From contig CM119265.1 in assembly GCA_051294375.1 (NCBI GenBank), positions 6,705,489-6,769,488 of the forward strand: a stretch of 64,000 nt of DNA, given 5' to 3'. Positions 14,938-52,800 of this stretch are shown in pieces (the stretch's first letter is position 1; each line of letters opens with the position of its first letter). The notes beneath the pieces were generated by a model that did no database searches, had not been told where the DNA came from, and worked only from the letters and a program-made list of their open reading frames with translations. The translations under genes were made by a program, and so were the position numbers. This stretch comes from Paraspadella gotoi. Its lineage: Eukaryota; Animalia; Chaetognatha.

Positions 14938-15157
14938 TGGTGGACTAAAATCCACCAACCGTTCATCAGCGGCAATTGCCATCGCCGCCCAACCCAAAGG
15001 TACGGGGTTCTAGACCAGTGGTCGCCTAGCAGTTAAGAGGGACGGGGCGCTAAACCCGCCTGTAACACGGTGTTACAGCCTGATCCGAAGCTCAGGGACT
15101 GCTTATATTGAACGATTCTGTCGCTAACATATAACAATTACAATTACTATCTCTTCA
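14938..15157 (+). mobile_element. tRNA-headed SINE-like element, family 1, copy A, containing a permuted twister-like motif at 15028-15103
   Basis: Homologous to 17530-17711, 28821-29079 and 52148-52363. 5' hairpin TGGTGGA/TCCACCA, B-box GGTTCTAGACC, then AGCAGT...GA-CGG...CCTGA-T-CCG-AA-GC-TCAGG-G-ACTGCT. The cleavage-site TAA reads AAA in this copy. Confidence 0.8.
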
Positions 15158-16309
15158 CTATCTCCATTTTTTTTCTTTGTTAATTCGGTCATCTATGTCA
15201 TATATATATTTCGAAAGATGAAACGTTACCCCGTGAGCTAGAACGGATGGCATAAATTCAAAATTTATTACACAAAAACTATTTGATAAAAAATATATGT
15301 CATTTGATAGAAAAGTCCTTGACGTTTTAAAAAAGTACAAGAATTCTGTAAAACTGACTTAGTGTATGCTCAATTTCTCATAATGTCCTCCTTTTAAAAG
15401 TGGCAGAAATTTGATTCCTAAAATTTATTAAGATGGAGAAAAAAACGTAGCCAGTAATCTGCTGCACACTTGCTTCTACTATCTGATTCAGCGCGGTTTA
15501 CGACGTGGGTTTTTCAACATTTCTAAATAATGCTACCAATGTAAAAAAAATGAAGGAAAAAGATGCCTGACCTTAGTGAGAGCGAGAAAAAAAATTAGTT
15601 ACGCAGAAATTTTTGTGGTTGAAAAAGTTGATTCCATTTGTTGTGCATCATTTGGGTGAACTATCCTGCCACAACCATCAGTTTGTTAGAAAGTGCTTCT
15701 TTTTGCCTCTGGTCAGCCCTGCGAATTTAACATCTACATTTAGGAGTCTCCAGTGATCCTAGGTGAACATTTCCATATGCTGGTGCATTTTCAAAATCTG
15801 AGATTTTTTCACCAACCCAAGATTCCTGTGTGCCATAAATTGCTTGAACAAATGAGGCAAAAACCTTCTGATGCAATTTTCCCCTTATATTGAGTTTGCC
15901 CGCTCTGCCGGGAGTCCCTCCGTTTCCACCCCGTCGCGTCACGACTTGAAGTAGCAGGAAGCTGACGTCAGTCCACAGCGTCGTCCACTTCGCAAGACCA
16001 AAAGTCCGTGAGGGCCTGTGGCCCAGTTCATCGCGCCCACAAGTCCAGCCTTGTGCCTGAGGCCCGTGGCTTCGTCGTGAGCTCTATCTGAAAATGGTTA
16101 CGTAGTTGACGTGACTAATGACGTGACTAATGACGTGACATCCTGCATACTGCCGTCGTAAAAAGGCCGTTTGTGGACGGGAAGGAAGCCTATGGTATAT
16201 ATCATGGTCTACTTTTTTTCTTTTTTTTTCTCCAAAGAAAAAGAATGAGGATATTCGGTCGTCCAAAGCGGCATCAACAATCAAAATATAAATTAAAAGT
16301 AACTAATAA

Positions 16310-49800: not shown

Positions 49801-52800
49801 TAATCATTTTATTCAGTCTTAGGGAGGCCATATTACTTATTAAAACTTATTTATTAGCCAAAAAATATATTTGACAATAAAATTAACTGGCTTTTCCAAA
49901 CCGCTACACTTTTTTTTTTTCAACATGGTAACAGTTAGTCGCCAACTCTCCATCAACGGTCTTGCCGAAAGTTTGGCACTTAGGCCGATTGAAAGTTTTT
50001 GCGAACGTATTCATTCGGTTAATATGCATTATGCAATATCCAGTTAAATGTAACGCATTCGGGGAGATTCTGATTGCGTTATTTCTAATCGCTATCATTA
50101 CTTATTGCTTAATTTCCATTTTTTTATCAGGGAAACGGAACAAGATGGAAGAAATGCCTATGGCCTGCAGCCCCTTTCCGATAAAAATTCCAAACGCGGA
50201 AGAAATGCTCATTGGGATAATGAACATAGCGCGAGATTAGGTATTTAAAAATAATTATTTATTACCCTGAATTCTAATTAAAAAAGTTTAGAAAACATTA
50301 ACATTTTTATTATTTATACCTATTATTACATTAAAGCTGCAAACTTACTTAAATTACTTTTCATTTTACTTTTAAACTTAAAGAGATTAAGTTAGAAAAA
50401 TTGCTAAAATTTTGACCATGTTAAGATTCTTCAAATGTTCAATTTTTTCTACAGCACGTGATTCTCGAAAAATTGTCCTGACCCATCCAATCGAAGTTGA
50501 GAGTGATCAGACTTCCGTGGCCTTGCATGATACGCCGCCAAACGTAAAGCAACACAAACGCATCAAATCTAAACAACACGTTGACAACAACAATAAAAGC
50601 CTCAGTCGCGCGTTAATTCATGCCGACGATCGAAAGTCCACCACTTGTGACGCTGGACACACTCCGAGAAACGACAGAAAACGGCGAGAAAGGCGGCACA
50701 AAGACGCTGGTGGAGGTACAAACTGCTATTTAATTCTGCACGAGTCGTGCAATAGGGTGGAGTAATGAAAAGATTGAGTGATTGGACATTATTTTTTTGC
50801 TGCCTATGGACATGTAATTAACGAATTTTAAAAAGTTTTTAAAAAATTTTAGCATAACTGTATAGTAAATTCAATTATTTATGTCGTAATATCCTTCTAA
50901 AATTATTAAATTTCAAAATGATTTTTTTATATTTAAGAACCGATTTGCATTATATAATATTTTAATGTTTGATTGCAAAAAGTTTATACTACAGAGAATA
51001 AAAAAAATCATAAATTTTTACCTTTCCCCCCCGTTTTGAAAGCTGAAGATGATAGAATTTTATATTTTTGATTCAACTTTTTATGAAGAATCTGAATCTT
51101 TAATAAAAGTTTAAAAAAAAAATTCTTATTTCATAAGAATATTATTCCAAACATATTGTATTTTACTCTATACTCTATACATGGTCTATTTTCGGTAGTC
51201 CTAGTTAGCTTTTATATGCTTATAATTCCGGTAATATTTCATCAATAAAGTTCATATTTGGTAAGAAGGTAAGGTATTATACTTATGAAAGCGATCAAAT
51301 GACGGCATAATTCACAGAATATTGTCATTTTAGTTGATAGACTTGGTAGACTGGTCACTACTTATAAGGGACTACGCAGAACTATGGACACGTGATCACA
51401 AAATGCGGCTTATTTCGTGTAATAGTTGGTTTAGTTGAATTTTTGCAGATAAATTATAAACCATAGGATTTCAGTCGCATATATATTTCATAATTATGTA
51501 ATAACGTTATTACACGCGATGAGAAAGTTACTGCGGCGCATCATATTCTTAAAAGAAACCATTTTTGGAATTAAAACTGCGATCTTCGAATTATTACTCT
51601 AAGTAAATTCCGAGTTTCCCTAATATTCTTAAGTTTTTTTTCCCTAGGTCTCGGTTCTCAGGAGCGCCGAAGTATGGAAACCTTGGACATTGACGAACCA
51701 GATTCTCTTGAATTAGCCTTAGATCAAAGTCTTGAGTTTCGAAAGCGTTCAAGCCACAGAGGTGAGAGCACAGAGTTTGTTAAAAATTGTAAAAATTTTA
51801 AGAAGAATAATTTTTTACAGACCCCAACCTGCCTCTTAGCTTTAGCTTAACTAATTTTGGCATTTTTAGCCAGAATCAAGTTTATAATTAAAAAAATAGG
51901 TAAGGTTTTTCCTTTTTTGGGGGTATTAATTAATACTTTATCCAGGAAAAACTTTGACTTTTTTTTATATAATATATATAATACAAATTAATGACAACAT
52001 TTTTACAATTTTAGTTTTTGCTTCTTAATCATAAAAAATAATTTTGTCAGCTCTATATTTGACAATACGAGATAAGACATTTAAATTTGGCCGGAGTGAA
52101 AGTTAAATTCCTTTACCAAAGCAAATGTCTGATAGAATTATTGTTATTGAAGAGACAGTAATTATTGTTGTGTTAGTGACAGAACCGTCCCTGAGCTTCT
52201 GATCAGGCTGTAACACCGTGTTACAGGCGGGTTAAGCGCCCCGTCCCTCTTAACTGCTAGGCGACCACCGGGCTAGAACCCCGGACCTTTGGGTTGGGAG
52301 GCGAATGACTTGCCTCCTGCACCAATGGCCGCTAATGAACGGTTGGTGGATTTTGGTCCACCATTTTATCAATTTCTTTCTTTATTAACAAGTTTGAGCA
52401 AACAATGTCAGATCTGCTTACGATAATTAAACGGTAATCTGCTAATCAGATGATAAATCACGATAATTCTTTCAATTTGTGATCCTAACTGATCATAACA
52501 GATCGTACCATACCAAACCAGTATCTGCGCCAATACATGTAAATCGCTTGCAAAGGATTAAACTGAACTGTTACTAGTACTGTTACCAGTTACTGTTACT
52601 ATTTTGATTAGTATTTCTTTTCAACTTGAATCATTTTTCAACACGCATTTTTTCAACTCGCATTTTTTCAACTCGTATCATTTATTCAATTTGCATAATT
52701 TTTTTCAAATCCCATATTTTTATCGTCGCAATCGCTTTGCGTTTGCGATGATATTGCTGTGGTTTTGTACATAAGTGGCTGGCTCTGCAGGGGCTCTTTC

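What the first reader, a model, noticed from the sequence alone, without database searches (positions are those of the whole stretch)
14938..52363. Family 1: a tRNA head fused to a twister and clamped by a long-range stem, with a core lesion in every copy
Seen: a full tRNA-like head (acceptor GCGGCCA/TGGTCGC, A and B boxes) is followed within about 2 nt by the twister. Unlike a normal SINE it has a ~31-nt leader upstream of the tRNA (hairpin TGGTGGA/TCCACCA), and the leader's AACCGTTCA is complementary to TGAACGGTT just 3' of the ribozyme, enclosing both domains. There is no poly(A) tail. Each of the three copies with a twister has a different lesion: TAA>AAA; TAA>TCA plus GC>AC; CCG>CAG plus P5 deletion. 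Inference: active cleavage would cut the Pol III promoter from the 3' end. Either only attenuated copies insert intact, or the element replicates via cleaved and religated circular RNA as retrozymes do.
Basis: partly seen in the sequence, partly recalled or inferred. Interest (0 to 1): 0.75.

Follow-up and report, generated by a model that had tools for sequence, protein, structure and literature searches.

The report
Twister ribozyme in tRNA-bearing LTR
This abundant ~220-base animal repeat joins a tRNA-like promoter region to a twister ribozyme fold and has fixed ends and 4-base target duplications, so it is likely the terminal repeat of a miniature LTR retrotransposon that would copy itself through a self-cut RNA circle; most copies keep an intact catalytic core, and cleavage is untested.

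Summary
The anatomy is real: leader hairpin, tRNA-like head, type-P5 twister fold and a 9-bp leader/tail complement. The claim of a lesion in every copy fails. U-1>A in copy 1 is tolerated by twisters. The other two hits fit each copy's ordinary divergence (P=0.58). In public contigs of the same organism about 98% of depth carries the intact letter at both sites that could be read directly. These point to the LTR of a Helenus-type miniature retrotransposon rather than a SINE. A second repeat family in the window carries the same twister variant with compensatory changes, and both replace P1 with a 6-nt self-complementary linker. Best model: a two-LTR Pol III transcript is cut at both twisters, possibly as a swapped dimer, closed into a circle and moved by Gypsy enzymes, as plant retrozymes are. 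No two-LTR copy, RNA or cleavage was seen. A Penelope/Naiad-dependent element is the main rival.

The parts
14903..14906 (+). Target-site duplication CTAT (left); right copy at 15158-15161
   Evidence: chance of a 4-bp match at two fixed points 0.008; left boundary picked by its 9/10 match to the repeat's start
14907..14935 (+). 29-nt extension unique to c1: begins with a 9/10 copy of the repeat's first 10 nt, holds a PBS-like segment (14909-14926, weak) and ends in a G-rich polypurine tract (14922-14935); likely the remnant of the internal region
   Evidence: tract of this strength precedes 5e-5 of window positions; PBS pairing 14 of 18 with the window's tRNA-Trp, 336 of 3000 shuffles as good
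14936..15157 (+). Copy c1, repeat body (putative LTR), TA...CA ends, 15-nt deletion in the tRNA D-arm region; twister core intact apart from the tolerated U-1>A
14938..14957 (+). Leader hairpin (putative U3)
14957..14965 (+). 5' arm of the long-range stem; pairs with 15109-15117
   Evidence: 15115 is G in 98% of contig depth
14969..15025 (+). tRNA-like region of c1 (A box deleted here; complete in c3 at 52332-52261)
15028..15103 (+). Type-P5 twister fold: P5 15028-33/15098-103; P2 15039-40/15055-56 plus C.A; GA 15041-42; T1 15043-45/15085-87; self-complementary linker 15046-51 in place of P1; predicted cut 15052/15053; T2 15058-59/15090-91; P3 15060-78; P4 15079-83/15092-96
   Evidence: compensatory differences against family 2
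15109..15157 (+). 3' arm of the long-range stem and fixed tail ending CTCTTCA (putative U5)
17528..17711 (+). Copy c2, 5'-truncated, more decayed; A+1>C (17611) and T2 G>A (17616), likely dead; no target duplication found
52148..52365 (-). Copy c3, solo unit with complete tRNA-like head; private T1 C>A (52200) and 14-nt deletion of the P5 3' strand; duplication ATAA
28819..29079 (+). Copy c6: both ends of the family around an unrelated ~150-nt middle; duplication AGTG
41363..41485 (-). c4, old decayed fragment over head and twister
45017..45125 (+). c5, older 5' fragment (start TGTTGG, B box GGTTCGAGC)
42230..42268 (-). c7, leader-only fragment, below nhmmer's inclusion threshold
38247..38489 (-). 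Family 2 unit (supporting, outside the finding's family): similar start TATCGTGGGC, ...TTCA end, duplication TAAA, same twister variant at 38353-38307 with linker AGGCCT

Best explanation
The repeat is likely the long terminal repeat of a miniature non-coding LTR retrotransposon of the Helenus/TRIMp3 type, seen here as single units, whose tRNA-like region would drive Pol III transcription and whose predicted twister ribozyme would cut a two-repeat transcript into a unit-length RNA that is likely circularised and reverse-transcribed by Gypsy-type enzymes. Shown: fixed TA...CA ends, 4-bp duplications, a leader upstream of the tRNA-like region, a polypurine tract abutting c1, the twister fold, and a mostly intact core across the family. 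Inferred: with no T4 terminator, Pol III would run from the first repeat through a ~29-nt spacer into the second. The first repeat's 3' half and the second repeat's 5' half would then form P5 and the long-range stem, which hold the two cut ends together; this is why the leader pairs with the tail. The 6-nt self-complementary linker cannot close a P1 hairpin within one copy but can pair between two copies, so cleavage may need two repeats, sparing single-unit transcripts. Single units would arise by LTR-LTR recombination or by copying from the circle. The lesions in c2 and c3 are decay after insertion. Odds by step: twister fold 0.9; lesions neutral 0.85; integrase-moved LTR element 0.6; circular intermediate 0.45; dimer-dependent cleavage 0.35.
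For: Ends: 117, 17 and 23 contigs (X5, X6, X8) leave at 52364 into unrelated AT-rich flanks, 51 leave at 52148 in X5, and 52365 is the element's T in 96% of X5 depth. Duplications CTAT, ATAA, AGTG in 3 of 3 two-ended copies, 0.008 each by chance, plus TAAA at the one full family-2 unit. In c1 the TA start follows the purine tract directly, so TA is not target-derived. Animal Helenus have tRNA-like LTRs with upstream sequence, 4-bp duplications, internal parts as short as 43 nt, and some LTRs that start with TA. No T4+ run in c1, c3, c6. Twister: family 1 against family 2 differ by compensatory changes in P2 (C-G/A-U), T1 (CCG/CGG against CCA/UGG) and T2 (G-C/A-U), share the C.A at P2's third position, and both linkers self-pair (-8.3 and -9.1 kcal/mol). 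Nested energies for c1: two active-type monomers -39.2, two misfolded monomers -54.6, swapped dimer -52.5 kcal/mol before pseudoknots are counted. Core intact: 52200 reads CCG in 97.6-99.7% of depth (3 runs), 15052 reads U in 97.7-99.7% (2 runs), and A+1, A+2 and both T2 guanines show no variant of 1% or more in X5. Plant LTR retrozymes give the precedent for ribozyme-cut circles and solo LTRs.
Against: No two-repeat copy among 7 window pieces. No high-depth joint from 3' end to 5' start in the contigs (15 of 29 joints shown, best supported first; one single-depth contig goes back 52327 to 52145). The PBS is weak (336 of 3000 shuffles as good; only 14 tRNA genes tested), and the extension is known from one copy. 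c2 and several family-2 pieces are 5'-truncated with a fixed 3' end, and two family-2 pieces begin near the cut site, which suits target-primed insertion. Rfam does not recognise the twister. P1 is dispensable in tested twisters, so dimer dependence is not required; the lowest-energy dimer of c1 is a different arrangement paired through P3 (-71.5). One partial family-2 copy has a linker that does not self-pair (-1.3). Folding z-scores are modest (-1.66, -2.74, and -1.54 as a circle). G15087>A reaches 11% in X5. Contigs drop rare variants, so private lesions are under-counted.
Confidence: 0.5

Rival explanations
1. A non-autonomous partner of Naiad/Penelope-like elements: a tRNA-driven unit carrying a pseudo-LTR twister, inserted by target-primed reverse transcription, with the 29-nt extension of c1 being the optional 'tail'.
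For: PLE insertions show 5' truncation and an optional 30-40-bp tail at either end, and the non-autonomous MRC1 was once misfiled as an LTR element; PLEs cut AT-rich DNA and start reverse transcription at fixed internal sites; flanks here are AT-rich; c2 and family-2 pieces are 5'-truncated. Unchecked earlier notes report P1-less P5 twisters in Naiad repeats and tRNA-bearing PLE hitchhikers; these are leads, not support.
Against: PLEs are described as partial or full tandems, whereas none of c1, c3, c6 has a unit 3' end upstream and the contigs show one sharp 5' end; constant 4-bp duplications; the extension ends in a polypurine tract like Helenus internal parts.
Confidence: 0.25
2. A tRNA-derived SINE with a ribozyme (Sm-alpha-like, or RTE-dependent) moved by a LINE, the twister having been picked up from a LINE 5' end.
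For: Pol III SINE-like elements with hammerheads exist in schistosomes; twisters head RTE elements, and the S. mansoni P3 stems begin CUGUA and end UUAC like this one.
Against: 33 nt of fixed sequence upstream of the tRNA-like region; fixed 3' end without poly(A) or a repeated tail; constant 4-bp duplications; no tandem arrays.
Confidence: 0.1
3. One reading: active cleavage is incompatible with intact insertion, so only ribozyme-damaged copies insert whole.
For: c2 and c3 carry disabling core changes; G15087>A at 4-11% of depth; X6 holds one high-depth contig with two core changes (52232, 52241).
Against: c1 is probably not disabled; 2 of 3 hits against 1.6 expected; a union bound caps the share of depth with a core substitution at 64% where 100% is needed.
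Confidence: 0.07
4. A non-autonomous DNA element (Helentron/HINE-like, using the leader hairpin and the 9-bp inverted pair as DNA signals) that captured a tRNA-twister cassette.
For: c6 keeps both ends around a foreign middle; a subterminal inverted pair next to a hairpin resembles Helentron ends (recalled, not checked in a paper).
Against: Target duplications are present (Helitrons make none; recalled); no terminal inverted repeat; family 2 shares the end motifs and the twister but little other sequence.
Confidence: 0.05

Closest known systems
Helenus / TRIMp3 (Kojima 2024, PMC10886601; parts 1-4 of 6, tables, supplement parts 1, 5, 10 of 11 read)
   Same: tRNA-like region inside an LTR with sequence upstream; non-functional tRNA fold; 4-bp duplication in animals; very short internal part ending in a G-tract; solo LTRs; some TA starts.
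   Different: The paper's main text has no mention of twister. None of 8 twister L4-type motifs searched in its supplement (9 hits) showed a twister context in the passages displayed (line-wrapped FASTA can hide hits). Published LTRs read here often have a T-run after the tRNA region; this one has none. No two-LTR copy or firm PBS is shown here.
Plant LTR retrozymes (Cervera 2016, PMC4918200; passages and Discussion read)
   Same: Ribozyme inside the LTR, 4-bp duplications, solo LTRs, ribozyme predicted in a blocked fold, circle model for reverse transcription.
   Different: Type III hammerhead, 600-1000-nt unit, plants; no tRNA-type promoter in the passages read. Here a twister, ~250-nt unit, animal, tRNA-like promoter; circle not shown.
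Animal non-LTR retrozymes and Sm-alpha (PMC7229834, PMC6765202 passages; bioRxiv 10.64898/2026.07.22.740005 part 1 of 5 and passages)
   Same: Small ribozyme-bearing retroelements; Sm-alpha has a Pol III promoter; some hammerheads work as dimers.
   Different: Tandem repeats with type I hammerheads, stated to lack LTR, PBS and PPT and to have longer duplications; here dispersed fixed-end units with a twister.
Twister ribozyme, type P5 (Rfam RF02684; Liu 2021 PMC8501958 sections 17, 19; Kobori 2016 PMC5113685 whole text; McKinley 2024 PMC11662667 section 32 part 1 and section 38; Roth 2014 not held, recalled)
   Same: All conserved loop bases and both pseudoknots; P3, P4, P5.
   Different: P1 replaced by a 6-nt self-complementary linker; P2 of two pairs plus C.A; not scored by Rfam; the known retroelement twisters are P1-type at the 5' end of Perere-3.
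Naiad/Chlamys non-autonomous Penelope-like elements such as MRC1 (Craig 2021 PMC8557442 passages; Frangieh 2024 PMC11167929 parts 1-2 of 4)
   Same: LTR-like look, 5' truncation, optional ~30-40-nt extension, AT-rich targets.
   Different: Tandem or partial-tandem insertion not seen here; fixed 4-bp duplication and purine tract not described in the passages read.

Membership tests
Twister ribozyme | L4 U-NNN-A-A-NN closed by P4 | tested here: met
   TCCGAAGC in a 5-bp P4
Twister ribozyme | Pseudoknots T1 (3 bp) and T2 (2 bp) | tested here: met
   CCG/CGG and GC/GC in c1; compensated CCA/UGG and AC/GU in family 2
Twister ribozyme | L1 with N-A-A at the cut and G-A opposite | tested here: met
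   15052-54 and 15041-42; U at -1 in 97.7-99.7% of depth
Twister ribozyme | P2 helix | tested here: met
   2 pairs plus C.A in both families; P2 imperfections are tolerated
Twister ribozyme | P1 helix | tested here: not met
   6-nt linker cannot close a hairpin (+3.1 kcal/mol for one pair); P1 is dispensable; it could form between two copies
Twister ribozyme | Score against Rfam twister models | tested here: not met
   no hit at E<=10; family 2 scores 27.4 bits against a cut-off of 37.6
Twister ribozyme | Site-specific self-cleavage | not testable with these tools
   needs a bench assay
Helenus / TRIMp3 | tRNA-like sequence with A and B boxes inside the repeat, with upstream sequence | tested here: met
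   c3 head aligns to window tRNAs at up to z=6.2; boxes; 33-nt leader
Helenus / TRIMp3 | 4-bp target duplication (animal families) | tested here: met
   3 of 3 two-ended copies
Helenus / TRIMp3 | Fixed LTR ends (TG or TA ... CA) | tested here: met
   TA starts occur in published Helenus; no terminal inverted repeat beyond the first base
Helenus / TRIMp3 | Polypurine tract directly before the 3' LTR | tested here: met
   14922-14935 in c1 only; one copy
Helenus / TRIMp3 | Primer-binding site | tested here: inconclusive
   right register (T-R-G, GGGAT at 14-18; 4 such sites in 128000 positions) but 14 of 18 pairs at best, 336 of 3000 shuffles
Helenus / TRIMp3 | Two LTRs around a short internal part | tested here: inconclusive
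   0 of 7 window pieces; no high-depth joint in contigs; no whole genome held
LTR retrozyme (plant) | Self-cleaving ribozyme within the LTR | tested here: met
   predicted twister inside the repeat, given the LTR reading
LTR retrozyme (plant) | Type III hammerhead | tested here: not met
   no hammerhead hit; it works like one at most
LTR retrozyme (plant) | Unit-length linear and circular RNA | not testable with these tools
   only contigs were available
tRNA-derived SINE | 5' end at the tRNA head | tested here: not met
   fixed end 33 nt upstream
tRNA-derived SINE | Variable poly(A) or repeat tail and variable-length duplications | tested here: not met
   fixed CTCTTCA end; 4 bp in 3 of 3
Non-autonomous Penelope-like element | Tandem or partial-tandem insertion (pseudo-LTR) | tested here: not met
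   none at c1, c3, c6; one single-depth contig with a back-joint
Non-autonomous Penelope-like element | Frequent 5' truncation and optional 30-40-nt tail | tested here: inconclusive
   c2 truncated; c1 extension is 29 nt; family 2 mostly truncated
Non-autonomous Penelope-like element | 3' end shared with an autonomous PLE | not testable with these tools
   no whole genome held

The most novel reading that the evidence does not exclude
This is the first animal LTR retrozyme and a new way to use a twister: a Pol III-transcribed miniature LTR element whose two repeats swap halves through a palindromic 6-nt linker to form a double twister. The RNA is then cut only after both repeats are made, and the ~250-nt unit is closed into a circle that Gypsy machinery copies. 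The same dimer-type twister is shared by at least two repeat families in this genome and is invisible to Rfam.
Probability: 0.25. Interest if true: 0.85.

Novelty: new variant of a known kind. Interest (0 to 1): 0.6.

Why it matters
Twisters are common in eukaryote genomes but their job is documented for few elements (Perere-3 5' processing). LTR retrozymes are described from plants with hammerheads, and animal retrozymes are described as lacking LTR features. A short, abundant animal element that joins a tRNA-type promoter, LTR-type ends and a twister would bridge Helenus and retrozymes. It would make three questions testable with a 76-nt RNA and one RT-PCR: whether twisters can act as dimers as minimal hammerheads do, whether circles are real intermediates for LTR elements in animals, and how Pol III-driven TRIMs set their RNA ends without a terminator. 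I found no report of a twister in a TRIM or Helenus LTR, or of a dimeric twister, in searches (open-access library only; Repbase and subscription papers not searched; bioRxiv supplements closed).

Tried and rejected
No whole genome is held, so no copy census was possible. Run search: no RNA holder listed; X8 is only guessed to be RNA, and its contigs behave like DNA, so nothing is drawn from it on expression. X10 and X11 (other organisms) gave no laid contigs, which is no proof of absence. Summed contig depth (about 2 million over the element against 58-110 for the listed long pieces in X5) is not a copy number and was not used as one. Pattern scans: 6 viral and 50 metagenome hits to a gapped core pattern were chance (55 of 56 with at most 2 P4 pairs, none with 4, no BLAST match to the element); 0 viral hits for the P4 hairpin; 1 GTDB hit, a lone 21-mer in a Rhodobacter chromosome. 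Rfam twister and tRNA models miss family 1. A 6-7-bp duplication with a TG start fits c6 but not c1 or c3 (c1 and c3 read from the sequence), so it was rejected for 4 bp with a TA start. PBS isotype was not resolved. Pairing of the purine tract with the tail end (-11.1 kcal/mol, 150 of 5000 random 15-mers as good) is too weak to use. The first long-range pair probabilities were mis-indexed and ignored; the stem is read from the printed structure. Host group was not identified: the LRR protein's best hits are unnamed, 43-56% identical. Earlier-findings look-ups by sequence and place were empty. Roth 2014 was not held. Tandem non-LTR retrozyme and HINE readings were considered and ranked low.
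Full report
1. What is in the sequence. The window is AT-rich animal-like DNA with microsatellites and a tRNA cluster; no whole genome is held. BLAST and nhmmer with c1 find seven related pieces. Three carry the twister region: c1 (14936-15157, +), c2 (5'-truncated, ends 17711, +) and c3 (52365-52148, -). 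The leader hairpin, the acceptor-like pair, the 2-nt gap to the ribozyme and the absence of poly(A) are as reported. The leader/tail complement is 9 bp and rare in shuffles (15 of 5000), though no single window copy keeps both arms whole. The head is tRNA-derived (z up to 6.2 against window tRNAs) but not a tRNA: the anticodon stem is broken and neither ARAGORN nor Rfam calls it.

2. Is it a twister? Rfam says nothing for this family, so I parsed it by hand and by descriptor. c1 has GA, a three-pair T1, NAA, a two-pair T2, P3, P4 with the 8-nt L4 and an enclosing P5; 4 of 20000 shuffles of c1 pass the descriptor. The same scan gives about 3 chance hits per shuffled window, so the stronger test is a second family at 38489-38247. 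It differs by compensatory changes in P2, T1 and T2, keeps the same C.A at the third P2 position, and scores weakly as Twister-P5 (27.4 bits). In both families P1 is replaced by six self-complementary bases (GGCGCU, AGGCCU). Cleavage is not shown.

3. The lesions. Liu et al. 2021 (PMC8501958, section 19) found that A, C and G at the -1 position all cleave, so c1 is probably not disabled. c2 (A+1, T2) and c3 (T1) hit sensitive sites (PMC5113685). Among the three copies 3 of 17 core columns and 15 of 111 other columns vary (P=0.71); the expected number of copies with a core hit is 1.6 and P(at least 2 of 3) is 0.58. Contigs of three public runs of the same organism (three studies; X6 shares a study with the possible source) were laid on c3, and two of them on c1. 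52200 is intact in 97.6-99.7% of depth and 15052 is U in 97.7-99.7%. In the X5 table for c1 (20 of 20 places listed), 3 of 12 well-covered core sites and 14 of 62 other sites have a variant of 1% or more. Mean shares are 1.18% and 1.56%; the latter falls to 0.38% if three subfamily-type sites are dropped, so the single site 15087 (11% in X5, 4-5% in X6 and X8) lifts the core above that trimmed background. Five core sites near the start of the laid stretch are under-reported and rest, which hid 22 weaker rows. A union bound gives at most 64% of depth with a core substitution. Contigs drop rare variants, but a lesion in every copy would need about 2% per substitution, the level that is visible elsewhere in these tables. 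The lesions are best read as decay.

4. What the ends say. The family has sharp ends: 117, 17 and 23 contigs leave at 52364 into unrelated flanks and 51 leave at 52148 (18 of 418 loose-end rows shown). The unit starts TA and ends CA. c3 and c6 are flanked by 4-bp duplications. c1 is too, once a 29-nt extension is included that begins with a near copy of the repeat's first ten bases. That extension ends in a G-rich tract abutting the repeat and has PBS-like spacing but no significant match to the 14 window tRNAs. The one full family-2 unit also has a 4-bp duplication and similar end motifs. This is the layout of Helenus, miniature LTR elements with a tRNA-like region in the LTR, 4-bp duplications in animals and internal parts down to 43 nt (PMC10886601). 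What is missing is a two-repeat copy; none lies in the window and no high-depth end-to-start joint appears in the contigs (15 of 29 joints shown).

5. Mechanism (inferred). c1, c3 and c6 have no run of four T, so a Pol III transcript from one repeat would continue through the spacer into the next. Cutting at both twisters yields a ~250-nt unit that starts at A+1 and ends at the linker. In it, P5 and the long-range stem join sequences from the two repeats and bring the cut ends together, ready for ligation. Plant LTR retrozymes are modelled this way, including solo LTRs made from the circle (PMC4918200), and RtcB circularises animal retrozyme RNA in vitro (PMC7229834). In one copy a local hairpin beats the active-type fold by 7.7 kcal/mol before pseudoknots are counted. 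Pairing two linkers brings a swapped dimer to within about 2 kcal/mol of two misfolded monomers, so damping may be built into the design rather than into lesions, as with dimer-dependent hammerheads. Against this, P1 is dispensable in tested twisters and the lowest-energy dimer is a different pairing.

6. Rivals. Earlier unchecked notes on P1-less twisters in Naiad repeats made me weigh a Penelope-dependent element. PLEs show 5' truncation and an optional 30-40-nt tail, and one non-autonomous PLE was once taken for an LTR element (PMC8557442; PMC11167929). c2 and family 2 show truncation. The absence of tandems, the constant 4-bp duplication and the purine tract favour the LTR reading, about 0.6 to 0.25. 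SINE, selected-attenuation and DNA-element readings rank lower.

7. Relatives elsewhere. Scans of viral, metagenome and prokaryote collections gave only chance matches. Motif searches of the Helenus supplement found neither this family's leader and head motifs nor a twister context (3 of 11 parts read in full, line breaks can hide hits).

8. Verdict. A real, abundant element with a sound twister fold. The headline about lesions is wrong, but the element is more interesting than a SINE: likely a Helenus-type LTR carrying a twister, which would make it work like a plant LTR retrozyme. It is not filed as a retrozyme (no hammerhead, no circle shown) and only provisionally as Helenus (no two-LTR copy, PBS unresolved). 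Novelty: new variant of a known kind. Interest 0.6.

Noticed in passing
window 38489-38247 (-); pieces at 1641-1574 (-), 42643-42571 (-), ~37899-37840 (-), 20514-20555 (+), 34701-34722 (+), 24721-24755 (+), 20175-20145 (-): Second repeat family with the same P5 twister variant (linker AGGCCT), similar end motifs, a 4-bp duplication at the full unit, and many 5'-truncated pieces sharing one 3' end followed by T in 5 of 5 exact end matches; two pieces begin within a few bases of the predicted cut site.
   Followed up: partly
window 28885-29035 (+): c6 carries an unrelated CA-rich middle between intact family-1 ends; no other copy of it in the window.
   Followed up: partly
window 18399-27138: Cluster of 14 tRNA genes of mixed isotypes on both strands.
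   Followed up: no
run X6 record 9 (on 52147-52291): One 566-nt contig at high depth carries a variant copy with two core changes and a different leader, as if a dead copy had been amplified inside a larger repeat.
   Followed up: no
joint 52327 to 52145: One single-depth contig runs from a unit's 3' end into another unit's head; the only hint of a two-unit arrangement.
   Followed up: no
window 14938-14957 and 14909-14916: The repeat's start resembles the PBS-like segment, and the hairpin's 3' strand reads like a tRNA 3' end (TCCACCA), so it could pair with either; a switch or self-priming role is speculation.
   Followed up: no
window 30581-31786 (+): Long open frame with C-terminal leucine-rich repeats; closest relatives unnamed, 43-56% identical.
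   Followed up: partly
window 93-4640: Repeated coding-like units (DNDCDG-type acidic motif in translation) spaced about 200 nt or more apart on the minus strand.
   Followed up: no
window 39376-39724, 53201-53445, 59807-60337; 57429-58366; 58425-58746: 18-nt repeat arrays next to other dispersed repeats, and 22- and 23-nt minisatellites.
   Followed up: no
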